From Candidatus Omnitrophota bacterium (GTDB taxonomy: Bacteria; Omnitrophota; Gorgyraeia; Zapsychrales; JANLHA01): 64,000 bases of DNA. Both the position numbers and the translations under genes were made by a program. The notes under the pieces are model-generated. The model ran no database searches, was not told the DNA's origin, and worked only from the letters and a program-made list of their open reading frames with translations. Of the stretch, positions 10,831 to 36,042 are shown piece by piece; position 1 is the first letter of the stretch; each line of letters opens with the position of its first letter. The stretch lies in NCBI GenBank assembly GCA_022711395.1, contig JAKLFA010000004.1, forward strand, positions 70,361 through 134,360, in the 5' to 3' direction.

Positions 10831-10851
10831 TGTTTTATCTCCTCAGTTATA

Positions 10852-10880: not shown

Positions 10881-10929
10881 CTAATTTTTTAAAATTTTTG
10901 GGGAGCCGGACATCTCTCCCCAAAAACTG

Positions 10930-20887: not shown

Positions 20888-23800
20888 TTATAACATCAAT
20901 GCTTCCTGCTCCTCACGGATCATTTGGCTCAATTCACGACCCGGGGCTTCCCCAGAACCCTCATCCGACCCAAGCAAAAACGGCAACGTCTGCACCGGAG
21001 TCGTATTGATAAGGATCGGGACAAATCCTTCAATGCGCATCTCTTTGATGGGCTGTTCCGGCAAAGGCAGCGGGATCCCGCGGTCATCACGGCGGATCTG
21101 CAGGTCCAGAAATTTAGGGTTCAAATCGATACCACCGACCGGAACCCTATCACTTTCACCGGAAGCCCTTCCCAAAACAGCAGAATTGACCATTTCCTGC
21201 TCGCGCATTTCCCGTCGGTCTGCCAAAGACTGCCAGGCCGAGGCCAGTTCCTGGCGCACGGCGCGTTCATAATCGGCACTGACACTCTTTCCGCTGGCAC
21301 GATCAGCATCGATCTGGCGCAATTCTGTTTCTTTAGCAAACACCCTCCTTAAATCCGCCTGATCGGACATCAACCGTTCCCGATTCAATAAAGACAATTT
21401 TTCAGAGAATCTCCCCGGCCCTTCCTGTTTTAAAAACTCCCTGACCTCACTAAAAGTCGCCCCGCCATTAAGATCATACGCCGCCATCACCCAGGCAATA
21501 CTTACAGCATCTTCAGCGGCTTCCCGTGACATTTTAGAAGCTTCCTGCGCCGCAGAAACAACGTCAAACGCGTTTCCAGTCCCCTCAAACAAGCGCTTGA
21601 CCTTTTCTTTATCAGAGGCCTGTATCCCCAGCTCCGTGGCGAACGCTTCAACAGCATGGTCAATGATCGTCGGATTACCATTGGCGGCGACCTGACGGGA
21701 TTCAAAACCTGAAGCCCCGGTCCCATTCAAAACAGCTTCAAAAAGCCGGCCATATTCACGGACCATCGTATGAATATTGACCCTTTCATGGGCGGAGCGA
21801 AACGACCTCTCCATTCCCTTTAAAAGCTCGTCAGAGCCCCGTTCTACGTAATCATAGTATTGCTGCGCCGCCTCGGTCATGTAATCGCCGAGCTGCCGCT
21901 GCGCTTCCCGATGAAAGGTCTCGAGCACTCTCGGATCTTTATTTTCAAATCCTCGAATGACATCATCCAAAGACCACTCCTTAAAAACATCGATCAGCCA
22001 GCCATTCTGACCATGGACCACCCAATCCAACGGCCCACCCGTCGCCGTGGCAATGACCTTACGCCCATTGAACCCAGCGCGCTGATCGCTCGTACCCGAA
22101 GCCTCTCGGGTGTGGCGCGGTAAAACCAGCCAAAAGTCGCTGGCCGAGACTGCCAGCCGCATGATCTCCACACCGGTATCCGGAACAAAAACGATCTTTC
22201 CTTTCAGTTCAGGACGGTTCTGCAGTTCACGAAAACGCCTGGCCCAATCCTTTCCGACATCATCACGCCCAGGCCCGCCGATAAAAAGATTAGACCCTAA
22301 GCCCTTACGCCTCCCCCAAGGCGTGTCATATTCCTGTTCCCGATCTCCCGTGATCCAACGGACCAATTCAAGCAAAAGCCCCTGTTCCTTATATTCCACC
22401 AAGCGGCGTAACGCACCGAATATCGGACGGTTCAGATCAGTGAACTGATTATAACCTTTGCTTCCCAGCCACTGATTGAGGTCTTCCTTGGCCTGCTGCC
22501 CAGACTCAAAAAGGTCCTGTCCGGTGATCTGTTCCATACCCTTTTGATGAATGCGGGACGCCAACTGCGGTGAATACCACTGCTTTGGATCAGAGCCGTT
22601 CTGAACACCGGTCGTCTTCCAGCGTTGATTGGGAAGAACCAGCCTCTTTGTAACTTCAGCGTGTTCTAACGAAACCCCATTAACGACAGATGACATGTGT
22701 GCCAAAGCTTCCGCCGCGTTAACGACCCGATGGTCGCCATCCTGAATGACGATCGAATCAGGGACCAGGTCATTGCCCAGGGCACCTCGAAGCCAGTTCA
22801 CATCATAAAAGACCGGCAGCGCCGCCCGTTCCGGAGTATGCGTTGTCATGACCACACGGGAAGCATCAAAGACGCTCTTTGATCCATTATTCATACTTTT
22901 GAAAAAATCCCGGTCATTCTGCATGGCCACTGCCACAAACAGCATCTGCGGCTCGCTCAAACGGACGATATCCGGGGAGATCCCGACTCTTTTCACCAAT
23001 TCAACAAAAGCCCTTCCGATAAAACCGTATTGCACGATCTGTTTTGTCCCATCGGGATAAATATTCTCAAAGATCTTCGGCTGACGAAGCAAGAACACAG
23101 GCGTGCCGTTGCGGTTAACCCAATACACGTCGACCGGATAATCTTTAGTGTGATTGAACTCCACATTAAACGATAAAGGAACAAGCTCTCCGCGCTCATT
23201 GCGGACCATGACCCTCTTGATCCCCTGTTCGTTATCCCAGTCGATCCTTTGACGATCCTGTCCCTCCTGATAATATTCATACAACGGCATCACGCCGATC
23301 GAAGAAAACTTCCGAAGGTCCCGGTAAGCCCCCCAGGTCTCACCGGTCAAAAACCCAAGGCCGCCTTTCCCCTGAGCGTTTTGCGCTAATCCCTGGAGTT
23401 CAGGCAAAAACGCTTCCAGCGACACATCCGCCACGACTTTTTTTCCGCCGGAGCGCTGAAAAAAATCATCCAACGGTGTTTCCTGAAAGCGCAAAACAGC
23501 CGCATTGGTCGGACGCGAAACATCTTCAACAGCTTCAGGAGTGGCATTTTCCACCAAACCCACATCCCGCCAGGCGCGCGTGGATCCGGGCACGCCCTGC
23601 AAACCCTTGCGCACAAGCCGCGCACTGTTGCGTCCAAGATCTTCCAAACGGCCTCTCAAGCGCCCCGCCTCAACTTCTTTTGTCAAACCTTCAGGGTCAA
23701 ACCCGCCGGAAAAATACCGGCGAGGGATGACCTGCTGAACAGACGGATCGTACTCTTCCTTAATATAGTCGTAGACCCCTTTGCGGAACGCATCCAAATA

Positions 23801-24769
23801 CTGTTCATAGATCTTGTTCTTTATCTCCCGGTCATCGATATCGATCCCCTTGATCTTGTTCTGATCAACATAGACCGTCGACAAAAGACTTTCCTTTAAC
23901 GCGACCTTATACCACGTCGCCAGGACCATCGCATTGTAGATCTGACGCAAGCGGGCGAAATTCTGCCCTTCATTCACTTCTTTTTCGATCTCAGGGATCA
24001 AGACCTCCCGGATGACCTGCGAAGACACATCATTGGCGATCTTCGCATTCTCCTCCTTAAGGTCCTGAAGACCAAACGCTTGATCATTCAACCCTTCTTT
24101 TAAAGCTAAATAATCCTCTTCCAGCATGACCTTAAGGCTGCTTTGGACCACGTAGGCCGCCCCGTCATACTCATAAACAACAGCTTCTTTGGGGACGATC
24201 CATATCTTGTTAAAGGTCGCCATCGGGATCTCGGTCGTCCCAAAGGCCTCTTTAGCTTTTTTATGCACACGCTGCCAAAAATCTTTTCCCAGGCCCTCTT
24301 CGGGATACATCAGGCTTGCTGTCAATTGTTTCAAAAGGTAATCCTGCGCCAAAAGGTCCGTACCCATTTCAGTCACTCCAAAGGACGGCGGAATGATGCG
24401 GTCCCCTTCATATGGAGAAAGGTTAACCCACATCTCCTCTTCAGGAACGGTCAAGGCCGCCAAAAAATAGCGGACCATCTTCAGCGTTTCCTGATCAAGC
24501 GCTTCATCCTTAAGATCGGAATTGCCGGTATCAATAAGAAATGAGAACTGAAGCGGATTGACCGGGTCAGGACGAATACCGGTAATAACAGCAGGAACAT
24601 ACCCGGGGCTGGTGGAAACCATGGTTCCCGGAAGAGGTAAAGATGGTAAAATTTGTGCGGAGGAATTCAGCGGAGGAATTACAAGGGTGAAACAAAAGAT
24701 GAAAACAGTAACTAAACTAATGACGCGTTTAAAATAATGGGCTTGTTCTTTTTTACAAATGCAATTCAT
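20888..24769 (-). CDS. Giant exported multidomain protein: signal peptide, a conserved N-terminal module shared with the next gene, a GT35 alpha-glucan phosphorylase-like core (PLP Lys apparently replaced by Arg), a helical region, and a shared C-terminal PLPLP module.
   Basis: 1293 aa. A Sec-type signal peptide (MNCICKKEQAHYFKRVISLVTVFIFCFTLVIPPLNSSAQ) is present. Residues ~40-360 are about 70% identical to the N-terminal module of the 1570-aa neighbour. GT35 motifs are GGLGFLTGETWG, MTTHTPERAALP, VNGVSLEHAEV and EASGTSDQRAGFNG (consensus EASGT[SG]NMK). The C-terminal GGIDLNPKFLDLQIRRDDRGIPLPLPEQP...GFVPILINTTPV segment matches the neighbour's C-terminus. Confidence 0.8.
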   Translation of the reverse strand: MNCICKKEQAHYFKRVISLVTVFIFCFTLVIPPLNSSAQILPSLPLPGTMVSTSPGYVPAVITGIRPDPVNPLQFSFLIDTGNSDLKDEALDQETLKMVRYFLAALTVPEEEMWVNLSPYEGDRIIPPSFGVTEMGTDLLAQDYLLKQLTASLMYPEEGLGKDFWQRVHKKAKEAFGTTEIPMATFNKIWIVPKEAVVYEYDGAAYVVQSSLKVMLEEDYLALKEGLNDQAFGLQDLKEENAKIANDVSSQVIREVLIPEIEKEVNEGQNFARLRQIYNAMVLATWYKVALKESLLSTVYVDQNKIKGIDIDDREIKNKIYEQYLDAFRKGVYDYIKEEYDPSVQQVIPRRYFSGGFDPEGLTKEVEAGRLRGRLEDLGRNSARLVRKGLQGVPGSTRAWRDVGLVENATPEAVEDVSRPTNAAVLRFQETPLDDFFQRSGGKKVVADVSLEAFLPELQGLAQNAQGKGGLGFLTGETWGAYRDLRKFSSIGVMPLYEYYQEGQDRQRIDWDNEQGIKRVMVRNERGELVPLSFNVEFNHTKDYPVDVYWVNRNGTPVFLLRQPKIFENIYPDGTKQIVQYGFIGRAFVELVKRVGISPDIVRLSEPQMLFVAVAMQNDRDFFKSMNNGSKSVFDASRVVMTTHTPERAALPVFYDVNWLRGALGNDLVPDSIVIQDGDHRVVNAAEALAHMSSVVNGVSLEHAEVTKRLVLPNQRWKTTGVQNGSDPKQWYSPQLASRIHQKGMEQITGQDLFESGQQAKEDLNQWLGSKGYNQFTDLNRPIFGALRRLVEYKEQGLLLELVRWITGDREQEYDTPWGRRKGLGSNLFIGGPGRDDVGKDWARRFRELQNRPELKGKIVFVPDTGVEIMRLAVSASDFWLVLPRHTREASGTSDQRAGFNGRKVIATATGGPLDWVVHGQNGWLIDVFKEWSLDDVIRGFENKDPRVLETFHREAQRQLGDYMTEAAQQYYDYVERGSDELLKGMERSFRSAHERVNIHTMVREYGRLFEAVLNGTGASGFESRQVAANGNPTIIDHAVEAFATELGIQASDKEKVKRLFEGTGNAFDVVSAAQEASKMSREAAEDAVSIAWVMAAYDLNGGATFSEVREFLKQEGPGRFSEKLSLLNRERLMSDQADLRRVFAKETELRQIDADRASGKSVSADYERAVRQELASAWQSLADRREMREQEMVNSAVLGRASGESDRVPVGGIDLNPKFLDLQIRRDDRGIPLPLPEQPIKEMRIEGFVPILINTTPVQTLPFLLGSDEGSGEAPGRELSQMIREEQEALML

Positions 24770-24890: not shown

Positions 24891-27800
24891 TTAATTCAGC
24901 AAAAAGGAAAGATCTCCCTGAGGGCCCGAAGCCCTTTTTTCCCTTTGCTGTGGAGAATCCGCCACCCCCAAAATAAGCGGGAGATTGCGCACCGGTGTCA
25001 TCTCAATGATCACCGGATAGAACCCGTCGATCTTCAATGTCTCAAGCGGCTGCTGCGGCAACGGCAGCGGAACCCCATTCGCATCACGCTCGATGGTCAA
25101 ATTCAAAAATGCCGGATTGAAGTCGATACCACCTTTTTTCCATCTGGCCTGTTCGGCCATCTGAGCAGGGTTCAAAACAGCGGCATTGGTCTCTTGCATA
25201 AACCCTTCCCATTTAGCAATAAAATCCAAACCTTCAGGGATGTCTTTTAAGCTCTTCAGGTCATGGATCAATTCCTGCGGACTATGCCTAAACGCAGCAA
25301 CTTTTCCCGCTGCCGCTAATTGAGTCACATCGCCGGTAACCATTTCGGTGTAAAGGCTGTCACCTTTCACGCGCAGATACCGCGGCAGATTGACCTCCGC
25401 AACGACTTCTTTTAATCCTTTAATGGAATACCAATTACGGAACGCGTTATAGGGCCATTTTTCTTTTCCGGAGCGATCCAAAACCTGCTGAAGATCCGAT
25501 GTTTTTAGCGCTAATGTTTCTGCCAAAAACGTCTTTCCCGTCGGCTTATGGTGCAAATAACTTCCGCCTTTCTGTCCCTTGGGGTTCCCAACAAGCTCGA
25601 TCCCGATAGCGACACCTTTATCCATCTGGTCCATAAAGTAGGCCAAACGGTGAACGCTCCCGACGTCTTCTGTCCACATGGTGAGGTCATTAACACGCTG
25701 CGTGCGGATGACATCAACTCCGCGGGACTCCAAGACATCTAAAAGATTCTGTTCAACTTTGACAAACACCCCCTGTGCATCCATCGTATAAACCTGGCCC
25801 TGCACTTTGAATTGTTCAAGCGCATAGCCATGGCCCGGAGGCAGCTGTTGGCTATTGCCATTAAAGTGCATTTCACCCTGTTCATCGGGAGAAAACCCTT
25901 TAAAAACCCGGTCGGTCAAAATATAAACATTCTCGCGGTTAAAACCATAAAAATCATTGGCAAACAGATCTTTGGCCGCCTCCTCAAAGATCATGTCATT
26001 AAAATGCACAACGATCTTTGTTTTGGCAATGACATCGTTGATGTCCTTTCCTTGCTCCTGGGCCAGTTTTTCAAGGAATTGACGATACGCGATGATCTGG
26101 CGGGGGCCCATTCCCTGATCAGACTCTGCCAATTTGAGTTCTTGATCATATTTTTGGGCTAGATCCTCTAAATACTTCTTCATTCCAGCCTCATCAAAGA
26201 CCTTGGTCTTCTCATTGGTAAATGTCTCCACCAATTTCTTTTGAAGGCTCGCGCGCTGCTTCTCTGTCAGTTTATTGGGACGGCCTAAAAGCGCCGCTAC
26301 AACATCTTTAATTTCGATGCTGTACATGGACCCTAATCCTAACCGGGTCGCAGCCCCGCCGAAATTGAAATGCGGGGTGATCTTGCCTTCTAGATAGGCG
26401 TTACGGGCCTCGGGCAATCGTGCCTCAACAGCCTTGTATTCAGAAACAACGTCCACCTGGCCAGCCTCGAGGTCTTCAGATTTCACAACCTCACCGTTGA
26501 TCCGAAGCGCGTTGACTTCATTCACCACGCGCTCAAGTTCTTCATCCTGCTTCTCTCGAAGGGCCTTGAAAAAGTCCATTTTTCCTTCAGCGCTCATTCG
26601 GGCGAGCAGATCTACGACGTCCTGCCCCATCTTAGCCTGTTCTTCATCGCCTGACAGAACCGCCGCGTTGGTCGGATCTGCCTCCTTGGGAACAAACTCA
26701 TTGTATTGTGCAATATGCTGCATGGCCCGTCCGAGATCCTGCGGGGCCTTCATATCCCGGATCACTTCCGGTTTTTCCTGATCGCTTTTCATATCCTTTT
26801 GATCATTCAACTGAAAAGCGATTACATCATTCGGAGTAAGGGCGAGCTGCGTGATATCTCCCGTCACCATTTCCGTATAAAAATAAAATTTTCCATCTTT
26901 TTCAACGACCCTCAAATACTTTCTCAATCGGGCGTTTGTCAGCATTTGCTTTAAGCCTGTAACTGTATAAAGATTCCGGAATGCATTGTAGGGCCATTCT
27001 TCTTCTCCGCTGTTATTATACAGTCCCGCGTATTCAGGTGATCTCATGGCAAGCGTTTCAACCAGAAAACTCATTCCTGCCCCACCACCTATATTCTCAG
27101 TGACCCATGTCCCACCTTTTTGTTTTCCCGGATTGGCCACAAGTTCAATTCCAACCTTGGCGCCGTCATTTGCAACTTTATCCAGGAAAAACGCAACTCG
27201 TTTAACACTACCGACATCTTCTGTCCATAAAGAAACATCATTCACGCGTTGAGTACGAATCACTTCAGCCGGTGTTTCCCGACCACTTAACAACTGAAGC
27301 AGGGTTTTATCGATCACCAAAGAAAGAACTCCTTTGGAATCCAGCTTCCAAACCTGCTGAACACGGTTGAACTGCTCCAACGCAAACCCGTGCCCAGGAG
27401 GAAGTTTTCCGCTTTTATCTTCAAATTTTGTACCACCATTATCTGTCAGCGAAAATCCCTGAAACACATCATCAACCAAAACATAAACATTTTCGGCATT
27501 AAACCCATAAAATGAATGCGCCTTCAGATCCTCAATGACATCACTGAAAATCTCTCCGTTCAAATGAACAATGATCGGTGCCTGGTTGACAACTTTCTTA
27601 GCCTTCTCGGGATTTGTCCCATCAGGATCGGCTAGTTTCTCAAGAAAGACCCTGTAAGCGATGATCTGACGTGGGCCCATGGGAATATCTTCACGGCCAC
27701 TCTTATTAAATAAATCGAGCTCTTTTGTTAAAGTCGCTTTAAAACTGTCTAAAGCCTGTTGCCGTTGCTCCGCCGTCCACTCTTTCGCATTTTCTTTTTT

Positions 27801-29603
27801 ATATTTATCCGCCAAATCATCCAAGTATTTCTCAACATTGTTTCTCAATCTTTTCTTTTGTTCATCTGTCAAGCCATTCTCTTGCCCAAGGATATCCTTC
27901 ACCGCATCCGTGATCTTGACTCCATACATCGACCCCACAAAACGTGTTGCCCCGCCGCCAAAGTTGAAATGCGGGACCACTTTTCCTTCTAAATAGCCCT
28001 CTTCGGCTTCGGCCAATCTTTCCGCAGATAACGGATAGCGAGCCAAACTATCAACGCCTTTTCCTCTCCCCAAAGACGTTGGATCAATAACTTTTCCTCG
28101 AATACTCACTTTATTAATACGATCAACTATCGTTTCAATCCTTTTCTTCCAAGATTTTACCTCTTCTTCACTATCTCCTGCCGGTCCCTTCTTTATCTCC
28201 TCAGTCAACGCTTCCCAAGCAACAACAGTTTTCCCATTAATCTGCACTCTTTGCTGGACCAACCCCTCAATATCCCGCCCCATATCATCCTGCAACCGAT
28301 GGCGTTCATCATCTAATATGGAAGAATTAACTTCAGCCGCAGTCGCATTCTCAACCAGGGCTGTGGTCAGATCCACATCCATGGACCCTTCCGGTCCCTG
28401 CAAACCTTCGGCGACTAACGCAAGCTGTTCTTGAGAAAGAACTGCTCCATTGGTCCCATCACCGTTGATGCGGCTTGCGCGGATATTGTCCTGCAGCGTC
28501 CGGCCTTGCGCGTCACGCTGCGCGTCAAACCCGCCGGAAAAATACCGTCGGGGCATGAATTGGCCGGTCAAAGGATCTTCTTCCTCACGGATATATTCAT
28601 AAACACCTTTGCGGAAGGCCTCAACATACTGATCATAAATCGCGGTCCGGGTGGCTTCTGAATCTTCCAGATCCACGCCTTTGACCTTGTTCTGATCCGC
28701 GTAAGCCTGACCCAGCAGCGTTTCTTTCAAACTCATCTTGTACCACGTTGCCAAAACCATGGACTGATAGATCTGGCGGAGCTTGGCGAAATTTTCGCCC
28801 TCGTTCACTTCCTTTTCAATTTCAGGGATCAGGACCTCACGGATCACCTCAGAAGAAACACCACTGATCTCCTCAGCGGCATCATTGGTCTTTACGTTCA
28901 TCCCATACTGCGCATTGCCGATATTTTCACGCAAAGCCACATAATCCTCTTCGAGCATCACCTTCATGGAACTTTTCACAAGATAGGCTGCCCCATCTTT
29001 TTCGTAAACGACCGCTTCATTGGGAACGATCCAGATCTTCGTAAAGGTGCTGAGCGGAATATGCGTCGTGCCGAATTCTTTCTGCGCCCGGGCATACACC
29101 CTGTCCCAAAAGGCCTTGCCCAGATCTTTTTCCGGATACATCAAACTGGCCGAAAGCTGCTTTAACAGATAATCCTGGGCCAAGAGGTCCATGGCCATTT
29201 CGGTCTGGCCGAACGATGCCGGGACCACACGATTGCCTTCATAGGGAGACAAGTTGACCCACAGATCCTCTTCCGGAACGGTCAGCGACGCCAAAAAATA
29301 TTTGATCAATCGGACAGATTCTTCCCGAAGGGCCAAAGGATCAGCCTCCTCGTTTCCGGTATTAACAATAAAATGGAACTGCAACGGATTTTCCGGATCA
29401 GGACGGATGCCTTTGATCAAGACCGGAACATAGGTCGGACTGGTTGTGACCATTGTTCCAACGGCCGGCAATGTGGGCAAAATTTGCGCCTGAAGCGCAG
29501 ATGGCGGAATAATAAATGAGTTTAAGAACGTCAGGACAAGCAGGATCCTAAAGGCTTTAGTAAAAACGGTCTTTTCGGCAGAGTGATTCCGGTGCAGAAA
29601 CAT
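24891..29603 (-). CDS. Giant exported multidomain protein: signal peptide, shared N-terminal module, two tandem UDP-glucose-pyrophosphorylase-family (UDPGP-like) nucleotidyltransferase domains, and shared C-terminal PLPLP module.
   Basis: 1570 aa with signal peptide MFLHRNHSAEKTVFTKAFRILLVLTFLNSFIIPPSALQAQ. The two internal repeats (aa ~520-930 and ~1055-1450) each carry PHFNFGG(G/A)ATR, PPGHG, RTQRVND and KGG(T/S) motifs. These resemble the eukaryotic-type UGPase/UAP motifs LNGGLGT, PPGHGD and VKGGTL. The N- and C-terminal modules are paralogous to the 1293-aa protein. The UDPGP family assignment is from motif recall only, hence moderate confidence. Confidence 0.75.
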   Translation of the reverse strand: MFLHRNHSAEKTVFTKAFRILLVLTFLNSFIIPPSALQAQILPTLPAVGTMVTTSPTYVPVLIKGIRPDPENPLQFHFIVNTGNEEADPLALREESVRLIKYFLASLTVPEEDLWVNLSPYEGNRVVPASFGQTEMAMDLLAQDYLLKQLSASLMYPEKDLGKAFWDRVYARAQKEFGTTHIPLSTFTKIWIVPNEAVVYEKDGAAYLVKSSMKVMLEEDYVALRENIGNAQYGMNVKTNDAAEEISGVSSEVIREVLIPEIEKEVNEGENFAKLRQIYQSMVLATWYKMSLKETLLGQAYADQNKVKGVDLEDSEATRTAIYDQYVEAFRKGVYEYIREEEDPLTGQFMPRRYFSGGFDAQRDAQGRTLQDNIRASRINGDGTNGAVLSQEQLALVAEGLQGPEGSMDVDLTTALVENATAAEVNSSILDDERHRLQDDMGRDIEGLVQQRVQINGKTVVAWEALTEEIKKGPAGDSEEEVKSWKKRIETIVDRINKVSIRGKVIDPTSLGRGKGVDSLARYPLSAERLAEAEEGYLEGKVVPHFNFGGGATRFVGSMYGVKITDAVKDILGQENGLTDEQKKRLRNNVEKYLDDLADKYKKENAKEWTAEQRQQALDSFKATLTKELDLFNKSGREDIPMGPRQIIAYRVFLEKLADPDGTNPEKAKKVVNQAPIIVHLNGEIFSDVIEDLKAHSFYGFNAENVYVLVDDVFQGFSLTDNGGTKFEDKSGKLPPGHGFALEQFNRVQQVWKLDSKGVLSLVIDKTLLQLLSGRETPAEVIRTQRVNDVSLWTEDVGSVKRVAFFLDKVANDGAKVGIELVANPGKQKGGTWVTENIGGGAGMSFLVETLAMRSPEYAGLYNNSGEEEWPYNAFRNLYTVTGLKQMLTNARLRKYLRVVEKDGKFYFYTEMVTGDITQLALTPNDVIAFQLNDQKDMKSDQEKPEVIRDMKAPQDLGRAMQHIAQYNEFVPKEADPTNAAVLSGDEEQAKMGQDVVDLLARMSAEGKMDFFKALREKQDEELERVVNEVNALRINGEVVKSEDLEAGQVDVVSEYKAVEARLPEARNAYLEGKITPHFNFGGAATRLGLGSMYSIEIKDVVAALLGRPNKLTEKQRASLQKKLVETFTNEKTKVFDEAGMKKYLEDLAQKYDQELKLAESDQGMGPRQIIAYRQFLEKLAQEQGKDINDVIAKTKIVVHFNDMIFEEAAKDLFANDFYGFNRENVYILTDRVFKGFSPDEQGEMHFNGNSQQLPPGHGYALEQFKVQGQVYTMDAQGVFVKVEQNLLDVLESRGVDVIRTQRVNDLTMWTEDVGSVHRLAYFMDQMDKGVAIGIELVGNPKGQKGGSYLHHKPTGKTFLAETLALKTSDLQQVLDRSGKEKWPYNAFRNWYSIKGLKEVVAEVNLPRYLRVKGDSLYTEMVTGDVTQLAAAGKVAAFRHSPQELIHDLKSLKDIPEGLDFIAKWEGFMQETNAAVLNPAQMAEQARWKKGGIDFNPAFLNLTIERDANGVPLPLPQQPLETLKIDGFYPVIIEMTPVRNLPLILGVADSPQQREKRASGPQGDLSFLLN

Positions 29604-29811: not shown

Positions 29812-31248
29812 TTATTCACAAAAACTTTGCCCGCGACGACACAATTCCTTGGCATATTCGGTCCAAAGTCCTGACCCCCAATAGCGGAAACAGCTGGTTT
29901 GTGACAACAGCAGATACAAAAACGCATTCTGATACGCGCTGGATTGAACTTCTTTTTGGGTTGTGCCCTTAAATTTTCGATGGAATGCCGCACTCAGCTG
30001 ATTAATAGGGTCCATGACGTCCCCATAGCCGGCGACCCAATCCCGGTCATTGGTCCAGGAAGCCCTGTCCAGATTAAAACCCCGGTCTTTCTGTTTGATG
30101 CGGTCAATGGCTTGATCAGCCGCACCGGGGCCGTAGTTGCCGTTCATTTCAGACCAGATCCTGTGTTGATTGATCGGTTGGACAGGCAAAAAGTCCTTCT
30201 CCAAAACCCCTTCTTTTTTCAAAAGATCCAAGTATTCCGAACCGTTCAAACCCACGACACCGGTTGTGCCGACCCCATCAAACCCGATATTATAATCTCT
30301 CGGAAATTCATTCATCATGACCCCGCCGTTTTCCCCATCGCCGATCTGTAAAACATACAAAGGAATATTCTTGCCGGCATAATCTTCACGCCCGCGGCCA
30401 CGGGCCTCGGCCAACGGCTGCATTTGCGCGACAAGCTTAGTGTCCGATCCCTGGGTCTTGACCAGCACCGTGATCTCCAGTGTTTCGCCCAGCGAATTTT
30501 TAGCGATCAAACGATGCGGAAGATGCGGGCGGCGGATGCCTGAACCGTCGGGATTCTGGATCGTATGCTCCTGGACCATCAGCCATTCATATCCGCATTC
30601 TTTGAGCGCCTTGACATATTCATAACATTGATCCGGATGGATCGGAAGATGCATCTCCGGCGGAGAAAAGCCCTTGACCCGGCGGACAGCCTCTTCACCA
30701 AAAACAGCCGCGAAATGTTTGCGCCATGCCATGATATGCAGTTTCAGATCAGGAATAGGTGTCGAGGTCGCCACCGCATGAGACCACGTGGTTCCCAGCC
30801 ACTCGGCGTGCGTGAAATATTTCGGGTCACAAACGATCCCGCGTAATGTTTCGATCGTGTCCGAGGCCCCCATTTGAGGGATCCCCCACAAAAGATTGCC
30901 TGAATAATCGAGCATGATCCGCGGATTTTTTCCCCGGCCGACCAGATCCGGAATGAACTGCCCCATGCGCGTGTAGCACTGCAGAAAGACCGGCGCATTG
31001 TGATTATCGCCGACGCCCTGATTATCCATCATGTGTTTCAGATTCGAGATCAATGAGGCATTGCGCAAGTCACCGGCCCCCGCGGGGATCGTCGGCTGAT
31101 GCATATGCAGCGCGATACCGAAGGATGCCTGCAGATCCTTTAGGCGGACATTCGAAACTTTCGCGTAATCAAAATTCGGCCTTAACGCCTCAACATCTTT
31201 GGGAGTAAAAAAAATATCAGGAAGCCCATTGGAAAGGATACCGTTCAT
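29812..31248 (-). CDS. Glycoside hydrolase family 57 protein (alpha-glucan-active; exact specificity unknown).
   Basis: 478 aa with the GH57 HxHQP signature (ALHMHQPTIP). It sits in a block with the GH57 branching enzyme and the glucan synthase. Confidence 0.6.
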   Translation of the reverse strand: MNGILSNGLPDIFFTPKDVEALRPNFDYAKVSNVRLKDLQASFGIALHMHQPTIPAGAGDLRNASLISNLKHMMDNQGVGDNHNAPVFLQCYTRMGQFIPDLVGRGKNPRIMLDYSGNLLWGIPQMGASDTIETLRGIVCDPKYFTHAEWLGTTWSHAVATSTPIPDLKLHIMAWRKHFAAVFGEEAVRRVKGFSPPEMHLPIHPDQCYEYVKALKECGYEWLMVQEHTIQNPDGSGIRRPHLPHRLIAKNSLGETLEITVLVKTQGSDTKLVAQMQPLAEARGRGREDYAGKNIPLYVLQIGDGENGGVMMNEFPRDYNIGFDGVGTTGVVGLNGSEYLDLLKKEGVLEKDFLPVQPINQHRIWSEMNGNYGPGAADQAIDRIKQKDRGFNLDRASWTNDRDWVAGYGDVMDPINQLSAAFHRKFKGTTQKEVQSSAYQNAFLYLLLSQTSCFRYWGSGLWTEYAKELCRRGQSFCE

Positions 31249-31269
31249 AATAGCCCTCGCGGTAGAATG

Positions 31270-32877
31270 TTACTGAATATAATGTTTGGCGCAATCCATG
31301 TCCGAAAATATATTATCACGCCATTCGACTTCCGCCAACCAATCTTCATCGATCTGGTCTTGCAGAATGTCCTCGTAAAGTTTGGTGAAACGGGCAATGT
31401 GCAACCGCACCCGGCGGTTGGCATACGGGACCATGGTCCCTGATTTCATGATGAACGGCCAATCGCTGGCCTCGGCTAGAAGGAGCTCGCGGGCCGCTTG
31501 GTTCAAAGCACGGCGGACCAAGGTCGGCTGGGGGGTCTTGCGGGCAAATTTGGATTTATATTTAGTAGCGATCTCCACCATGCGTTCCCCGGCCTTATGG
31601 ATATGCCGATAGATCCAGTCATTGCCGCCTTCAAGCCAATATTCACTGTAACCTTTATATCCCCAGCTAGATGTCGAAGGAACAGCCATCTGGTTCGTGG
31701 AATATTCCGCCAGATACTCCGACGGAGTAATGGGCTTCACCGTATCCTGGTCAAAATGCATTTTCCGGAAAAGAAAATCCAGGAACATCGGACCTTCATA
31801 CCACCAATGGCCGTAAAGCTCAGCGTCATACGGCGCAACGATCATGGGTTTGCGGTCCATGTAGCGGGTCAGATGCTCGACCTGCTTCTCACGGTTAAAA
31901 AGAAAGTTTCCCGCGTGCTGCGCGGCCTTCTCCCTGGCCCAATCGGGGCGGTAAGCCTCCTTATATTCGCTCTTGCCTGTGATGCGCCAATATTTAATGC
32001 CGGTATTGACCCGGATCCCCGACGGATGAATGTAGGGCTTGATATAATCGTATTCCAGCTCATGGCCGATATCCCGGTAATATTCACGGTAATCCACGTC
32101 CCCCGGATAGCCTTCCTGAGCGCTCCAGACCTGTTTAGAAGATTCCCAATCACGTCCAAAAGCCGCCACACCTGCCGGCGTATAGATCGGCGCGTAAACA
32201 CTGTAACGTGGCCTCGGGTCAGCATTGATGATCCCGTGCGAATCCACGAAAAAATATCTTAAGCCCGCCTCCTTTAAGATCTCCTCCACGCCCGGCACAA
32301 ACCCGCATTCCGGAAGCCATATCCCTCGGGGTTTACGGTCAAAGACTTTTGTGTAATGCTCGACCGCGACCTGGACCTGCGCCTTGGCGACCTGCGGGTT
32401 CACGCCCAAGATCGGCAAAAACCCATGCGTGGCGCAGCAGGTGATGATCTCAAGGGCCCCGATATCCTGAAAATACTTGAACGCGCTGACAATGTCGCGG
32501 TTCAAATCCTCGGCGAAGAGCTTGCGGAATTCACGGAACCGGTGATTATACATGAGCGCCAGCCCATGATAATGCGGCTCGTAACCCGTGCGATGGATCT
32601 CCTGCTCGGAGAGTTGAATAAGCTTGTCCAGATGGCGAATGTACCGTTCCTGCAGAAGCGGGTCCTGAAGCATATTGATCAACGGCGGCGTCAAAGACAT
32701 CGTGATGCGGAACTTGACCTTGTCCCTCACAAGCCCGTCAAACACCTTTAAAAGGGGAATGTAGGTCTCTGTAATGGCTTCATACAACCAGTTTTCTTCG
32801 AGAAAATATTCTTCTTCAGGGTGGCGGACAAAAGGCAGATGCGCATGTAAAACTAGAGCGAGATATCCTTTGGGCAT
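31270..32877 (-). CDS. GH57-type 1,4-alpha-glucan branching enzyme.
   Basis: The N-terminus LALVLHAHLPFVRHPEEEYFLEENWLYEAITETYIPLL is near-identical in pattern to the Thermus/Thermococcus GH57 branching enzymes. The downstream blocks HGFLPILG, YDAELYGHWWYEGPMFLDFL and LLLAEASDWPFIM also match. Confidence 0.85.
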   Translation of the reverse strand: MPKGYLALVLHAHLPFVRHPEEEYFLEENWLYEAITETYIPLLKVFDGLVRDKVKFRITMSLTPPLINMLQDPLLQERYIRHLDKLIQLSEQEIHRTGYEPHYHGLALMYNHRFREFRKLFAEDLNRDIVSAFKYFQDIGALEIITCCATHGFLPILGVNPQVAKAQVQVAVEHYTKVFDRKPRGIWLPECGFVPGVEEILKEAGLRYFFVDSHGIINADPRPRYSVYAPIYTPAGVAAFGRDWESSKQVWSAQEGYPGDVDYREYYRDIGHELEYDYIKPYIHPSGIRVNTGIKYWRITGKSEYKEAYRPDWAREKAAQHAGNFLFNREKQVEHLTRYMDRKPMIVAPYDAELYGHWWYEGPMFLDFLFRKMHFDQDTVKPITPSEYLAEYSTNQMAVPSTSSWGYKGYSEYWLEGGNDWIYRHIHKAGERMVEIATKYKSKFARKTPQPTLVRRALNQAARELLLAEASDWPFIMKSGTMVPYANRRVRLHIARFTKLYEDILQDQIDEDWLAEVEWRDNIFSDMDCAKHYIQ

Positions 32878-32943
32878 GCTTTATGAATTCCTATAGAACA
32901 ACGGCCGCACCCAGAAACGCCAACAATACGTCCCTTCGGCGTC

Positions 32944-34398: not shown

Positions 34399-35530
34399 CC
34401 GCTATAATGTCCCATGAAAACACGGACTCAGCTGCGATGCGGCCATTACGGCCCATCCAACGGGCATCATCAAAATCTTCGAACAGCGTCCCGATCCCCC
34501 AGGCGATCGATTCCGGATTATCAGAAATCTTCAGTCCATTGACCTCATGCCAGACGATCTCTGAAGGACCGCCTTTGTCGCTTGCCACAACAGGCTTACC
34601 AGCGCTCCAGGCCTCCAGGATCACGATCCCGAACGGCTCGTTGCGGCTGGGAACGCAAACACAATCCGTCGCCTTAAAGAGATCCTTCAGCTTCCATCCA
34701 TTGACATGGCCCAAGAACCGGCAGGCATGCTTAACGCCCATGTGAAGGGCCTGCTCCTCAACCTGCCGCCTCATTTCGCCATCCCCGGCAAAAACAAATT
34801 TTGTGTTGGGATAATAATTCAAAACATACGGGATCGCGCTTACCAAAAGGTCCACACCCTTTTGATAGACCATGCGCCCCACGAACAAAACCATCGGGTC
34901 CATCGGCCCAATATCATACATCCTCTTAACGCCGGCCGGCTCGATCCAGCCGTCAAACTGGCGATAATCAATCCCGTTATAGACCACATCCACCTTCTCA
35001 TTCGGCGTGCTGTAGATCCATTGCACTTCATTTTTTAAGGCATGCGAAACAGCGATCACATGGTCTGCTTCATAACAAGCTTCCCATTCAATATGGCGAA
35101 TTCGCTCAGAATTGCCTCCAAAGAAATTGTTTCCGCAACGCCCATACTCTGTTGAATGGATCGTAAAAACCGTATGATGCGCCCTTCCCTTTTTAATCCA
35201 ATACATTGCAGGGGCCGCAAGCCAGTCATGCGCATGGATCACGTCAAAACGCCCGACATGGTCTTCTGTTTCAAAAAATGAATTGCAAAAAGACCGGCAC
35301 ATATTATGGATCTCTTCAATAAAATTTTGATTGGAATCAAAAGGGCAGCGGTGATAATGAACACCGTGTATGCATTCATGACGCGCGTGATTAGGGCGTC
35401 CCATCCGGGTAAAAACATGAACTTCATGTCCCTTACGCTGAAGGGCGCAAGCGAGTTCTGTCACATGAAAGGCCACCCCTCCAATATAGATCGAATGAAC
35501 AGCCTCCCAAGACAAAAGTGCAATACGCAT
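34370..35530 (-). CDS. GT4-family retaining glycosyltransferase, probable alpha-glucan (glycogen) synthase.
   Basis: The N-terminus MRIALLSWEAVHSIYIGGVAFHVTELACALQRKGHEVHVFT is typical of the GT-B glycogen/glucan synthases found next to GH57 branching enzymes. The C-terminal GT-B half carries E..G motifs (LEAWSAGKPVVASDKGG). Confidence 0.6.
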   Translation of the reverse strand: MRIALLSWEAVHSIYIGGVAFHVTELACALQRKGHEVHVFTRMGRPNHARHECIHGVHYHRCPFDSNQNFIEEIHNMCRSFCNSFFETEDHVGRFDVIHAHDWLAAPAMYWIKKGRAHHTVFTIHSTEYGRCGNNFFGGNSERIRHIEWEACYEADHVIAVSHALKNEVQWIYSTPNEKVDVVYNGIDYRQFDGWIEPAGVKRMYDIGPMDPMVLFVGRMVYQKGVDLLVSAIPYVLNYYPNTKFVFAGDGEMRRQVEEQALHMGVKHACRFLGHVNGWKLKDLFKATDCVCVPSRNEPFGIVILEAWSAGKPVVASDKGGPSEIVWHEVNGLKISDNPESIAWGIGTLFEDFDDARWMGRNGRIAAESVFSWDIIADEVLSIYGT

Positions 35531-35532
35531 CT

Positions 35533-35995: not shown

Positions 35996-36021
35996 GATGT
36001 CCTCACATGATGAACAGAAAA

Positions 36022-36042
36022 TGTTAACAAGGCGTTAACATC
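36022..36042. promoter_or_regulatory. Perfect inverted repeat ATGTTAAC-aaggc-GTTAACAT in the 5' leader of the XRE-CBM48 regulator gene; candidate autoregulatory operator.
   Basis: Exact 8-bp arms, located 27-47 bp upstream of the preferred start codon and downstream of the putative promoter. Confidence 0.4.

What the first reader, a model, noticed from the sequence alone, without database searches (positions are those of the whole stretch)
21725..23437. The GT35 phosphorylase core appears to lack the PLP Schiff-base lysine (EASGTSDQR instead of EASGT[SG]NMK)
Seen in sequence: the motif reads EASGTSDQRAGFNGRKV. Established knowledge: in E. coli GlgP and MalP and in muscle phosphorylase the motif is EASGT(S/G)NMKF(A/M)LNGAL, and its Lys carries pyridoxal phosphate. 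Here the aligned residue is Arg, and the NMK triplet is DQR. Other GT35 blocks are conserved (GGLG, TTHTPE, NGVS.EHAEV). Inference: this may be a catalytically inactive pseudo-phosphorylase repurposed as an alpha-glucan-binding or sensing module. Alternatively it is a divergent enzyme using another lysine.
Basis: partly seen in the sequence, partly recalled or inferred. Interest (0 to 1): 0.7.

Follow-up and report, generated by a model that had tools for sequence, protein, structure and literature searches.

The report
Glucan phosphorylase relative without cofactor lysine
The glycogen-phosphorylase-like domain really does carry arginine where every studied phosphorylase has the lysine that holds vitamin B6. 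This is the hallmark of a large unstudied sister family, which probably works without that cofactor, and not a one-off defect.

Summary
In the 1293-aa protein at 20888-24769 (-), the motif reads EASGTSDQR. Arg897 (codon CGC, 22079-22081) aligns without gaps to the PLP lysine, Lys609 of the Segatella copri phosphorylase.

It is not a local defect. Arg occupies this column in 42 of 43 relatives from species-representative genomes, and in about 110 of the 150 best cluster representatives. These form a clade sister to the Lys-bearing 'alpha-glucan family phosphorylases'.

All sugar- and phosphate-binding residues are invariant (GGLG, THT, NG, RR..YK, EA.GTS). No clade-specific replacement lysine exists. 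A dead pseudo-enzyme is therefore unlikely.

The predicted fold lies between GT35 phosphorylases and GT5 glycogen synthases. The gene closes an alpha-glucan cluster: a GT4 synthase-like gene, a GH57 branching enzyme, and a tandem UDP-sugar-pyrophosphorylase-like neighbour. In other Omnitrophota the domain sits inside giant proteins.

The best reading is an active, PLP-independent alpha-glucan glucosyltransferase. I lean to a cofactor-free phosphorylase (0.4) over an NDP-glucose-using transferase (0.3). No biochemistry exists for any member, and databases call them both 'synthase' and 'phosphorylase'.

The parts
20888..24769 (-). Whole gene, 1293 aa: signal-peptide-like N-terminus, N-module, GT35-like GT-B domain, helical linker, C-module.
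   Evidence: ORF list. Module boundaries from BLASTP against the neighbour and tblastn.
24656..24769 (-). aa 1-38: basic n-region, hydrophobic core and S-S-A|Q. This looks like a Sec signal peptide with a signal peptidase I site. That is an inference by eye; no predictor was run.
   Evidence: Sequence. The same pattern (xQA|QI(L/I)P(S/T)LP) occurs in the neighbour and in L039. A crude heuristic was applied.
23525..24655 (-). N-module (aa 39-415). It belongs to an Omnitrophota-specific family with no Pfam match and is shared with the neighbouring gene at 54-57% identity.
   Evidence: (at least 987 clusters).
21710..23452 (-). GT-B glucosyltransferase domain (aa 440-1020), GT35-like.
22079..22105 (-). 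E889-A-S-G-T-S-D-Q-R897, the active-site loop. R897 (codon CGC, 22079-22081) sits at the PLP Schiff-base Lys column. R888 (22106-22108) precedes it and is specific to the subclade.
23354..23365 (-). G469-G-L-G472, the glycine loop. It is equivalent to the GT35 GGLG loop that contacts phosphate, and is invariant.
22835..22846 (-). T642-T-H644-T. His644 is equivalent to ScGP H316 (the glucose O6 ligand) and is invariant.
22388..22408 (-). R788-R789-L-V-E-Y793-K794, equivalent to ScGP R507, R508 and K513, which bind the phosphates. R788, R789, Y793 and K794 are invariant.
22172..22180 (-). D864-T865-G866, in place of the D-Y-D of Lys-type enzymes. The aromatic residue next to the cofactor ring is lost in this subclade.
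   Evidence: Some standalone Arg-type proteins keep the Tyr.
22031..22054 (-). I906-A-T-A-T-G-G-P913. This GT4/GT5-like 'GGPxE/D' turn replaces the 'LDGWW' of Lys-type phosphorylases.
   Evidence: The window's own GT4 reads ASDKGGPSEIV at the aligned place.
22289..22330 (-). aa 814-827, a clade-specific insertion carrying the conserved (K/R)GLGxN motif. It has no counterpart in Lys-type phosphorylases.
   Evidence: The motif served as a search pattern.
21185..21709 (-). aa 1021-1195, a linker region with no detectable homology.
20960..21184 (-). C-module (aa 1196-1270): GGIDLNP..LDLQI..RD..GIPLPLP.QP..I.GF.P.I....P...LP.LLG. It is 52% identical to the neighbour's C-terminus.
24891..29603 (-). 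Upstream neighbour, 1570 aa. It has the same N- and C-modules around two tandem domains (26604-28316 and 25134-26603, 42% identical to each other) with the UDP-sugar pyrophosphorylase fold.
   Evidence: Foldseek top hits are UDP-GlcNAc and UDP-sugar pyrophosphorylases, E 7e-15.
29812..36030 (-). Co-directional alpha-glucan gene set upstream:
- GH57-like (29812-31248)
- GH57 branching enzyme (31270-32877)
- DUF4912 (32944-34398)
- GT4 glycogen-synthase-like (34370-35530)
- HTH+CBM48 regulator (35533-36030)
   Evidence: The same order precedes the homologue in L039.

Best explanation
The domain is a catalytically active member of an uncharacterised 'Arg-type' sister family of the GT35 alpha-glucan phosphorylases, and it works without covalently bound PLP.

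Shown:
- It keeps the complete phosphorylase-type -1 glucose site and the phosphate-binding Arg-Arg...Lys triad.
- It has replaced the Schiff-base Lys by an invariant Arg.
- In this subclade it has added a second Arg next to the catalytic-loop Glu and has lost the Tyr that packs on the cofactor ring.

Inferred mechanism: retaining, front-side (SNi-like) transfer of an alpha-1,4-linked glucosyl unit between the glucan end and orthophosphate (glucan + Pi <-> glucan(n-1) + Glc-1-P). The extra guanidinium groups (R897, R888, R788) would position the phosphate, or hold a second non-covalent anion in the old cofactor-phosphate site. They would take over the job of the PLP 5'-phosphate, as in the cofactor-free GT4 trehalose phosphorylases.

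In the cell it would fill the 'GlgP slot' of the alpha-glucan cluster it terminates. The other slots are a GT4 synthase-like gene, a GH57 branching enzyme and a UDP-sugar-pyrophosphorylase-like neighbour.

It is displayed on a lineage-specific N-module/C-module scaffold that looks Sec-exported. That would itself favour a cofactor-independent enzyme. The topology and the donor are both inferred, not shown.
For: - Nearest relatives by sequence are phosphorylases: TIGR02094 8.4e-26 and ScGP 1.9e-27, against 6.5e-6 for the best GT5 hit. Foldseek's top hit is ScGP, 6.5e-28.
- The equivalents of ScGP H316, R507, R508 and K513, plus GGLG and E-A-x-G-T-S, are 100% conserved in 44 clade sequences, and R897 is 98% conserved.
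- The clade is large and old: 43 species-level genomes, about 110 of the top 150 cluster representatives, and a sister position to the Lys-type clade in a rough NJ tree.
- Gene-neighbourhood logic: the window cluster has a synthase-like GT4, a GH57 branching enzyme and an NDP-sugar-pyrophosphorylase-like gene, but no other phosphorylase candidate. The synteny is repeated in L039.
- A bona fide GT5 synthase lies within 10 kb, or in the same giant polypeptide, in 8 of 43 loci. GH13 branching-type domains do so in 5 of 43. A GH57-GT5 fusion lies 5 kb from the Sedimentisphaerales homologue.
- GT-B retaining phosphorylases that are not GT35 exist (GT4 trehalose phosphorylases). Both families are thought to use a front-side mechanism in which phosphate is its own proton donor (PMC8950772). 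That the GT4 enzymes need no cofactor rests on my own knowledge.
Against: - Every characterised GT35 enzyme needs PLP, and its 5'-phosphate is regarded as essential. No PLP-free alpha-glucan phosphorylase is known (PMC8950772).
- The residues that hold the PLP phosphate (R788, T893, S894, G470) stay invariant although the ring ligands changed. This fits a diphosphate-bearing donor (NDP-glucose) at least as well.
- The rare UDP-sugar-pyrophosphorylase-like domain co-occurs with this domain three times: in the window, L015 and L045. In L013 the domain shares a polypeptide with NTP_transferase and PGM and no other GT-B.
- The 'operon logic' is weakened if the two scaffolded proteins are exported while the GT4 and GH57 enzymes, which have no signal peptide, stay cytoplasmic.
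- About 9% of clade members have a residue other than Arg.
Confidence: 0.4

Rival explanations
1. Leloir-type 'GT35'. The enzyme uses an NDP-glucose donor, probably UDP-glucose made by the neighbouring pyrophosphorylase-like protein, to elongate an alpha-glucan. The nucleoside monophosphate would occupy the slot that PLP fills in phosphorylases: alpha-phosphate in the PLP-phosphate site, ribose where the pyridoxal ring sits. The clade would then resemble the hypothetical pre-PLP ancestor of GT35.
For: - The PLP-phosphate ligands are retained while the ring ligands (Lys, and Tyr in this subclade) are replaced, and Trp becomes Gly in the following turn, which opens the pocket.
- The window's GT4 and the L022 GT5 domain, used as outgroups, carry Glu at the aligned column. 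From my own knowledge this is the ribose-binding second Glu of the EX7E motif, so this position faces the nucleotide or cofactor slot.
- The adjacent gene has two UDP-sugar-pyrophosphorylase-fold domains on the same scaffold. That very rare domain (3 homologues) recurs upstream of this domain in the giants of L015 and L045.
- The L013 giant carries NTP_transferase, PGM and this domain.
- The review PMC11046441 proposes that PLP replaced an NMP in a proto-GT35 NDP-sugar enzyme.
- NCBI names relatives 'glycogen/starch synthase'.
Against: - A dedicated GT4 or GT5 synthase is already present in the same cluster or polypeptide in many contexts, so a second synthase would be redundant.
- Arg rather than Glu occupies the ribose-facing position.
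- The GS-type Lys of KxGGL is not conserved: the residue before GGLG is K, A, S, V, T or R.
- Sequence profiles favour GT35 by about 20 orders of magnitude.
- If the protein is exported, NDP-sugars would not be available unless it acts inside another cell.
Confidence: 0.3
2. Pseudo-enzyme. The domain has lost catalysis with the loss of PLP. It survives as an alpha-glucan or Glc-1-P-binding, targeting or sensing module on the scaffold and in giant proteins.
For: - The residue essential for cofactor attachment is missing in all members.
- The domain is embedded in very long multi-domain proteins whose function is unknown.
- About 9% of clade members tolerate Ala, Gly, Asp, Met and other residues at the Arg position.
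- The cluster also encodes a CBM48-containing regulator, so glucan sensing is a theme.
Against: - Every catalytic or ligand-binding residue apart from the cofactor anchor is invariant across 35-50% identical sequences and across phyla.
- 83 columns are at least 90% conserved.
- Standalone 500-630-aa cytoplasmic versions exist in small CPR genomes and in Planctomycetota. A mere binding module would be an odd thing to keep there.
- Binding alone does not explain the invariant GGLG, RR..YK and E..GTS.
Confidence: 0.12
3. A still PLP-dependent phosphorylase. PLP would be held non-covalently, or by a different lysine.
For: - The PLP-phosphate ligands (R788, T893, S894, the G470 loop) are conserved.
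- From general knowledge, the imine itself is not needed for catalysis in muscle phosphorylase, because the reduced Schiff base is still active.
Against: - No clade-specific conserved Lys exists. K761 and K794 are shared with Lys-type enzymes.
- The ring-packing Tyr is lost in this subclade.
- Arg897 would occupy part of the ring pocket.
- The protein looks Sec-exported, so it would have to acquire PLP outside the cytoplasm.
Confidence: 0.05

Closest known systems
Alpha-glucan family phosphorylases (NCBIfam TIGR02094; 'clade 2' glycogen phosphorylases such as Segatella copri ScGP, PDB 9l6i/20yr; archaeal maltodextrin phosphorylases)
   Same: It is the best sequence and Foldseek match. It has the same GT-B fold. 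It shares GGLGxLxG, T(T/N)HT, NxVSxxH, xNG, RRxxxYK and EAxGTS, which cover the residues ScGP uses for glucose and phosphate: H316, R507, R508 and K513.
   Different: - Lys609 becomes Arg, the adjacent Leu/Pro becomes Arg, D-Y-D becomes D-T-G, LDGWW becomes ATGGP, YKR becomes YKE and NGVH becomes NGSD.
- The clade has an extra (K/R)GLGxN insertion.
- It lacks the DUF3417 N-terminal and C-terminal beta domains.
- Its score is less than half the family cutoff (90.9 against 191.7 bits).
- It forms a separate sister clade.
GT5 glycogen/starch synthases (E. coli GlgA 2qzs, Arabidopsis SS4 6gne, Pyrococcus GlgA 2bis)
   Different: - Sequence profiles barely detect GT5: PF08323 at 21.8 bits is below its cutoff, and TIGR02095 gives 3e-7.
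- There is no conserved KxGGL lysine and no HDWH.
- The active-site loop is EASGTS, not EPCGL.
GT4 retaining trehalose phosphorylases of fungi
   Same: They are GT-B retaining enzymes that use Glc-1-P/Pi. They are the only non-GT35 GT-B phosphorylases known, and they serve here as a mechanistic precedent for a PLP-free front-side mechanism (PMC8950772; their cofactor independence is from my own knowledge).
   Different: There is no detectable specific sequence relationship. They make a disaccharide (alpha,alpha-1,1) rather than an alpha-1,4-glucan. No structure is available. This is an analogy only.
'GT5 / starch-synthase' domains reported in Omnitrophota giant proteins (West-Roberts et al. 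2023, bioRxiv 10.1101/2023.11.21.568195; 2026 preprint 10.64898/2026.06.07.730766)
   Same: The phylum is the same, as is the embedding in proteins above 7000 aa next to PGM, GT1, HAD and GNAT domains. This domain gives weak PF08323 and PF00534 hits, so it may be counted among those 'GT5' and 'GT1' domains; I did not check this.
   Different: In the passages returned by my term searches, these papers treat the domains as glycogen-synthase-like. In those passages the 2023 paper never uses 'phosphorylase', and the 2026 preprint uses it only for methylthioadenosine phosphorylase. PLP and lysine were not among my search terms, and I did not read either paper in full.
Thr-type ~550-aa 'alpha-glucan family phosphorylases' (e.g. 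P0034 Pseudomonas saliphila, P0051 Ferruginibacter, P0108 Hymenobacter)
   Same: This is a second GT35-related lineage with no Lys at the Schiff-base column (SGTSGMT), and it also has Arg before the loop Glu (PREASGTS).
   Different: It branches inside, or next to, the Lys-type clade rather than with the Arg-type clade. It keeps the Tyr (GYE) and the DGW turn. It occurs in cultured Bacteroidota and Pseudomonas, as standalone proteins.

Membership tests
CAZy GT35 / Pfam PF00343 / NCBIfam TIGR02094 (alpha-glucan phosphorylases) | Score above the curated family thresholds. | tested here: not met
   PF00343 scores 19.3 bits against a gathering score of 27, and only aa 858-911 match. TIGR02094 scores 90.9 against 191.7, and TIGR02093 23.1 against 552.9.
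CAZy GT35 / Pfam PF00343 / NCBIfam TIGR02094 (alpha-glucan phosphorylases) | A Lys in E-A-S-G-T-x-x-x-K forms the Schiff base with PLP. | tested here: not met
   Arg897 is at that column in three kinds of alignment. Lys609 of ScGP is the reference.
CAZy GT35 / Pfam PF00343 / NCBIfam TIGR02094 (alpha-glucan phosphorylases) | An aromatic residue packs on the cofactor ring (the Tyr of N/D-Y-x, Tyr648 in muscle GP; the numbering is from memory). | tested here: not met
   The window protein and the Omnitrophota/Elusimicrobia subclade have D-T-G here. Some standalone Arg-type proteins keep the Tyr.
CAZy GT35 / Pfam PF00343 / NCBIfam TIGR02094 (alpha-glucan phosphorylases) | Phosphate-binding Arg-Arg/Lys...Lys (ScGP R507, R508, K513), the glucose-binding His (H316), and the GGLG and E-x-x-G-T loops. 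| tested here: met
   R788, R789, K794, H644, G469-G472 and E889-T893 are 100% conserved in 44 sequences.
CAZy GT35 / Pfam PF00343 / NCBIfam TIGR02094 (alpha-glucan phosphorylases) | GT-B two-Rossmann fold similar to solved phosphorylases. | tested here: met
CAZy GT35 / Pfam PF00343 / NCBIfam TIGR02094 (alpha-glucan phosphorylases) | PLP content and Pi-dependent phosphorolysis of alpha-1,4-glucans. | not testable with these tools
   This needs recombinant protein.
CAZy GT5 (ADP/UDP-glucose glycogen/starch synthases; PF08323, TIGR02095) | Score above the curated thresholds. | tested here: not met
   PF08323 scores 21.8 against 22.7 bits. TIGR02095 scores 29.5 against 328 bits.
CAZy GT5 (ADP/UDP-glucose glycogen/starch synthases; PF08323, TIGR02095) | N-terminal K-x-G-G-L with a conserved Lys, and an E-P-C-G-L type loop (both features recalled from memory). 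| tested here: not met
   GGLG is present, but the preceding residue varies (K, A, S, V, T, R). The loop is EA(S/C/A)GTS.
CAZy GT5 (ADP/UDP-glucose glycogen/starch synthases; PF08323, TIGR02095) | Fold similarity to solved synthases. | tested here: met
CAZy GT5 (ADP/UDP-glucose glycogen/starch synthases; PF08323, TIGR02095) | Use of an NDP-glucose donor. | not testable with these tools
   There is only circumstantial context: the UDP-sugar-pyrophosphorylase-like neighbour, and NTP_transferase plus PGM in the same giant.
Arg-type GT35-like clade (proposed here, unnamed) | E-A-[SCA]-G-T-S-x-x-R, and a position in the clade sister to Lys-type TIGR02094. | tested here: met
   The window protein (P0241) lies in the 108-member clade, of which 98 carry Arg. 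The tree is neighbour-joining on BLOSUM distances and is only indicative.

The most novel reading that the evidence does not exclude
The Arg-type clade is a surviving 'pre-PLP' form of the phosphorylase lineage. It would be an enzyme with a phosphorylase-type glucose and phosphate site that still uses an NDP-glucose donor, or otherwise works with no organic cofactor. If so, it directly shows how pyridoxal phosphate came to replace the nucleoside monophosphate when glycogen phosphorylase evolved from glycogen-synthase-like ancestors. In Omnitrophota it has been recruited, together with a matching UDP-sugar-pyrophosphorylase-like enzyme, onto exported scaffolds and giant proteins that may act on or inside prey cells.
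Probability: 0.3. Interest if true: 0.85.

Novelty: new variant of a known kind. Interest (0 to 1): 0.68.

Why it matters
Every characterised GT35 enzyme is a PLP-dependent alpha-1,4-glucan phosphorylase. How the cofactor entered a fold otherwise devoted to nucleotide-sugars is an old open question.

A large, conserved sister family that keeps the whole active site except the cofactor anchor makes that question testable at the bench. Several small, soluble-looking standalone members are available, for example a 507-aa Paceibacterota protein and a 621-aa Sedimentisphaerales protein.

Whichever donor it uses, the result would be a first: either the first cofactor-free alpha-glucan phosphorylase or the first nucleotide-sugar-dependent GT35-like enzyme.

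There are two practical consequences:
- Public annotation of these proteins is contradictory. NCBI says 'glycogen/starch synthase' and JGI says 'glucan phosphorylase' for the same clusters. Metabolic reconstructions of Omnitrophota, CPR and Elusimicrobia that count them as either are unsupported.
- This domain is a candidate source of some of the 'GT5' counts reported for Omnitrophota giant proteins. I did not check this.

Tried and rejected
- **Alignment slip by an indel:** rejected. The pairwise, profile and multiple alignments are all ungapped through PRHTREASGTSDQRAGFNG.
- **Sequencing or assembly error:** rejected. The codon is CGC, and Arg recurs in more than 100 independent homologues.
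- **Decaying gene:** rejected. The ORF is intact, 83 columns are at least 90% conserved, and the model pLDDT is 94.
- **A compensating lysine elsewhere:** none found.
- **Identity of the neighbour by sequence:** Pfam, NCBIfam and PDB sequence searches gave nothing, and only 3 homologues turned up. It was resolved only by structure prediction plus Foldseek.
- **Context of standalone homologues:** the Peribacteria (L036), Paceibacterota (L049), L050 and L051 loci hold housekeeping neighbours and say nothing about the donor.
- **Context of P0003 and P0009:** no glucan genes. P0003 sits next to PorV, a C11 peptidase and an 8393-aa protein.
- **The 'TNAAVL' motif as a general junction or processing signal of the scaffold family:** rejected. 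It occurs in 1 of 120 relatives.
- **Literature on GT35 proteins lacking the PLP lysine:** nothing found.
- **Residue-level inspection of the predicted pocket:** not possible. Model coordinates are not exposed to the scripting tool, so pocket arguments rest on alignments and on remembered GP/GS structural correspondences.
Full report
**What is there**

The finding lies in one long ORF, window 20888-24769 on the minus strand, 1293 aa. Its parts are:
- a signal-peptide-like N-terminus;
- a ~380-aa N-module;
- a ~175-aa linker without homologues;
- a ~75-aa C-module.

The gene just upstream (24891-29603, minus strand, 1570 aa) has the same N-module (54-57% identity) and C-module (52%) around a different cargo.

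**Check of the observation**

The central domain reads ...LPRHTREASGTSDQRAGFNGRKVIATATGGPLDWV... and also contains GGLGFLTGE, MTTHTPERAA and VNGVSLEHAEV.

Pairwise phmmer against all PDB chains aligns the stretch without gaps to bona fide phosphorylases. EASGTSDQRAGFNG pairs with EASGTSGEKAEMNG of Segatella copri GP, and with EASGTSNMKFALNG of an 'alpha-1,4 glucan phosphorylase' chain, 9uoe. A profile built from the protein and its 12 closest relatives hits the S. copri enzyme at E 1.9e-27. It places the profile's Arg on chain residue 609. Lys609 is the residue shown by cryo-EM to carry PLP in that enzyme (PMC12912991).

The codon is CGC (22079-22081), at least two changes away from AAA or AAG. 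It is not an alignment slip or a base-calling error.

One correction to the wording is needed. The domain is GT35-like rather than a scoring member of GT35:
- PF00343 scores 19.3 bits against a gathering score of 27.
- TIGR02094 scores 90.9 against 191.7.
- There are equally weak hits to the GT5 N-terminal domain (21.8 against 22.7) and to GT1/GT4.

**It is a family trait**

A word-indexed search of 5.8 billion proteins found only about 15 close relatives (39-50% identity), then a jump to 23-26% identical Lys-type 'alpha-glucan family phosphorylases'.

A scan of one genome per GTDB species found 43 loci. Most are Omnitrophota, some of them mislabelled Planctomycetales by their depositors. Two are Elusimicrobia and four are 'Peribacteria'. 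At the Lys column, 42 of the 43 have Arg and one has Ala.

An exhaustive HMM search of 1.84 billion cluster representatives gave 228 hits below 1e-30. Of the best 150, about 110 read E-A-[SCA]-G-T-S-x-x-R, and Lys reappears only among the weakest hits.

In a rough neighbour-joining tree of 232 domains, rooted with two GT4/GT5 sequences, the Arg-bearing proteins form one clade. It has 108 members, of which 98 carry Arg. Its sister is a clade holding 67 Lys-type phosphorylases plus a ~550-aa group of 51 that carries Thr, Ser or Ala at the column. The GT4/GT5 outgroups have Glu there. From my own knowledge this is the second Glu of the EX7E motif, which faces the nucleotide ribose.

Source names for members of the same clusters contradict each other. 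NCBI calls them 'glycogen/starch synthase' and JGI 'glucan/starch phosphorylase'. Taxa include Sedimentisphaerales, Paceibacterota and Elusimicrobiota. I found no paper discussing GT35 relatives without the PLP lysine.

**What is conserved and what is not**

Across 44 clade sequences that share 35-50% identity, 83 columns are at least 90% conserved.

Invariant residues:
- G469-G-L-G472;
- H644 (ScGP H316);
- N724 and W731;
- R788-R789...Y793-K794 (ScGP R507, R508, K513);
- E889-A-x-G892-T893.

S894 and R897 are each 98% conserved. These residues cover the glucose and substrate-phosphate ligands. By the usual muscle-GP correspondences, which I take from memory, they also cover the ligands of the PLP phosphate: the K568 equivalent R788, the T676 equivalent T893, and the GGLG amide.

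The changes sit in the surroundings of the cofactor ring:
- Lys becomes Arg897.
- In the Omnitrophota/Elusimicrobia subclade, D-Y-D becomes D-T-G.
- Leu/Pro before the Glu becomes Arg888.
- The turn LDGWW becomes ATGGP.

That last turn looks like the GGPxE turn of GT4/GT5 enzymes; the window's own GT4 reads ASDKGGPSEIV at the aligned place.

The only Lys columns conserved in the clade (K761, K794) are also basic in Lys-type enzymes. There is therefore no candidate replacement lysine.

**Fold**

An AlphaFold2 model built on a 19-sequence alignment is confident (pLDDT 94.2, pTM 0.91).
- Foldseek reverses the order: S. copri GP at 6.5e-28 with TMq 0.72, and SS4 at 3.6e-24 with TMq 0.68 and TMt 0.79.

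The domain is thus a compact GT-B protein. It has the size of a synthase and the active-site sequence of a phosphorylase.

**Surroundings**

Every ORF of 300 aa or more in the window lies on the minus strand, except the two at 36232-38628. Upstream of the two scaffolded genes, and co-directional with them, lie:
- a GH57-like protein (29812-31248);
- a GH57 branching enzyme with its BE_C domain (31270-32877; NF041133 at 1e-101);
- a DUF4912 protein (32944-34398);
- a GT4 glycosyltransferase whose best match is the 'glgA_Coryne' glycogen-synthase subfamily (34370-35530; 1e-49, below cutoff);
- a small HTH+CBM48 protein (35533-36030).

The same order of genes precedes the homologue in L039.

The cargo of the adjacent scaffolded gene is two tandem ~480-aa domains, 42% identical to each other. 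Pfam, NCBIfam and PDB sequence searches do not recognise them, and they have only three homologues in the big database. A moderately confident model (pLDDT 77.6) matches eukaryote-type UDP-GlcNAc, UDP-sugar and UDP-glucose pyrophosphorylases (Foldseek E 7e-15, probability 1.00, TM 0.5-0.57). The motif GGAATRLG sits where, from memory, that family has GGxGTRLG.

The cluster therefore has one candidate for each classical glycogen function: synthase, branching enzyme, NDP-sugar pyrophosphorylase and, in the Arg-type domain, phosphorylase.

**The domain elsewhere**

- In 16 of 43 loci the domain follows the same N-module, and in 11 the C-module is also found.
- In at least 15 loci it lies inside an ORF that stays open across the whole 21.7-kb fetched locus, that is, more than 7250 aa.
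- The L013 protein (5794 aa) also carries NTP_transferase, an AUDH cupin, HAD, PGM and GNAT domains.
- The L022 protein carries GH13/branching-type domains, a bona fide GT5+GT1 glycogen synthase and RelA/SpoT upstream of the domain.
- A GT5 synthase lies within 10 kb in 8 of 43 loci, and a GH13 domain in 5 of 43.
- The rare pyrophosphorylase-like domain lies upstream of the domain in the giants of L015 and L045.
- A Sedimentisphaerales standalone homologue sits 5 kb from a GH57-GT5 fusion.
- Standalone 500-630-aa forms have no signal peptide, whereas many multi-domain forms do, by a crude heuristic.

Two preprints on Omnitrophota giant proteins list 'GT5/starch synthase', GT1 and PGM among their commonest domains. 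This domain gives weak PF08323 and PF00534 hits, so it may be part of those counts; I did not check this. The topology of such proteins is unsettled in that literature.

**How it most likely works**

*Shown:* the phosphorylase-type glucose and phosphate site is intact and under strong selection, the covalent cofactor anchor is absent, and the genomic theme is alpha-glucan metabolism.

*Inferred:* the enzyme is active and does not use covalently bound PLP. Two donors remain plausible.

I lean, at 0.4, to a cofactor-free alpha-glucan phosphorylase. The reasons are:
- Sequence relatives are overwhelmingly phosphorylases.
- The domain fills the only empty slot of the cluster.
- A dedicated synthase is usually present alongside it.
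- Cationic Arg897, Arg888 and Arg788 are suited to hold orthophosphate, or a second anion in the old PLP-phosphate site.
- GT-B retaining phosphorylases outside GT35 exist (GT4 trehalose phosphorylases). Both families are thought to use a front-side mechanism in which phosphate donates its own proton (PMC8950772).
- A cofactor-free enzyme also suits proteins that are exported unfolded, and lineages with poor cofactor biosynthesis. Both of these last points are inference.

The main rival, at 0.3, is an NDP-glucose-using transferase. It is supported by:
- retention of the PLP-phosphate ligands while the ring ligands changed;
- the GT5-like shape and GT4/GT5-like turn;
- the pyrophosphorylase-like partner on the same scaffold;
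- the NTP_transferase + PGM + domain fusion in L013;
- the published idea that PLP replaced a nucleoside monophosphate in a proto-GT35 (PMC11046441).

A pseudo-enzyme (0.12) fits poorly with the invariant catalytic residues and with standalone copies in tiny CPR genomes. A PLP enzyme using another anchor (0.05) is unlikely, because no alternative Lys exists.

**Limits**

- The tree is neighbour-joining on BLOSUM distances and is biased by how the sequences were collected.
- Signal peptides were judged by eye and by a crude heuristic.
- Pocket arguments rest on alignments and on remembered GP/GS correspondences, because model coordinates could not be inspected.
- Co-occurrence counts come from tblastn at E below 1e-6 within +-10 kb only.
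- No member of the clade has been studied experimentally, as far as the searchable literature shows.

**Verdict**

The object is a new variant of a known kind: a GT-B alpha-glucan glucosyltransferase between GT35 and GT5 that lacks the PLP anchor. Interest is fairly high, because a simple set of assays on small standalone members would settle a question about the origin of PLP use in phosphorylases.

Noticed in passing
window 23525-24655 and 28329-29486 (N-modules); 20960-21184 and 24966-25184 (C-modules): The two adjacent genes share a ~380-aa N-terminal module behind a signal-peptide-like leader, and a ~75-aa C-terminal module (GGI(D/N)(L/F)NP...LP.LLG). The N-module has no Pfam match but at least 987 database clusters, almost all Omnitrophota and several per MAG. 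Its cargoes vary: PGM, a response-regulator receiver, a Rossmann-type (GAGxVG) insert that by eye resembles alanine dehydrogenase (L039), the GT35-like domain and the pyrophosphorylase-like domain. It looks like a lineage-specific display or export scaffold for cytoplasm-type enzymes.
   Followed up: partly
window 25134-28316 (-): Two tandem ~480-aa domains have the UDP-sugar pyrophosphorylase fold (Foldseek E 7e-15). They are invisible to Pfam, NCBIfam and PDB sequence searches and have only three homologues in 5.8 billion proteins. tblastn nevertheless finds the domain in the Omnitrophota giant ORFs of L015 and L045, about 2500 aa upstream of the Arg-type domain.
   Followed up: partly
window aa 421-426 and 1194-1199 of gene 20888-24769; aa 978-983 and 1472-1477 of gene 24891-29603: A short motif, (T/V)N(A/S)AVL, occurs at all four module junctions of the two genes. 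It is found in only 1 of 120 other N-module proteins (P0190), so it is local to this genome. Whether it is a linker or a processing site is unknown.
   Followed up: partly
P0034, P0051, P0108, P0120 and about 44 other proteins: A second Lys-less lineage exists: ~550-aa 'alpha-glucan family phosphorylases' that read PREASGTSGMT(A)AMNG, with Thr (rarely Ser or Ala) at the PLP column. They occur in cultured Bacteroidota (Hymenobacter, Ferruginibacter) and in Pseudomonas saliphila. One cluster alone has 611 member sequences. They branch beside the Lys-type enzymes and keep the Tyr. I know of no biochemistry for them.
   Followed up: partly
L006, L008, L010, L023, L044, L045 and others (match at locus nt ~10001): In at least 15 species-representative genomes the Arg-type domain lies in an ORF open across the entire 21.7-kb fetched locus (more than 7250 aa). 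Depending on the locus, the same ORF carries NTP_transferase, PGM, HAD, GNAT, ribulose-phosphate epimerase, NAD-epimerase, PP2C, RelA/SpoT, GH13 or bona fide GT5 domains.
   Followed up: partly
window 29812-36030 (-); L039 nt 494-6900: The alpha-glucan cluster has an unusual make-up: an HTH regulator fused to a CBM48 glycogen-binding domain, a GT4 'glgA_Coryne'-like transferase, DUF4912, a GH57 branching enzyme and a second, very divergent GH57-like protein (PF03065 at 21.9 against 21.2 bits). The gene order is conserved in L039.
   Followed up: partly
L009 (match 10001-11695) and P0244: A minority of clade members replace the Arg: EASGTSDGA in L009 and P0244, and Gly, Cys, Asp, Met, Leu, Val or Ile in about 9% of representatives. 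The Arg is therefore not absolutely required for folding. Whether these proteins are active is unknown.
   Followed up: no
L001/L002 (P0003 context, Elusimicrobia): The Elusimicrobia homologue has a signal peptide but no N-module. It lies between a PorV (type IX secretion) gene that follows an 8393-aa ORF, and a C11 peptidase. This is a secretion-flavoured neighbourhood with no glucan genes.
   Followed up: no
window 1-64000: GC skew is negative in every 2-kb bin (-0.07 to -0.22). Only two of the ORFs of 300 aa or more are on the plus strand (36232-37668 and 37672-38628). This suggests the window lies wholly on one replichore with strong gene-strand bias.
   Followed up: no
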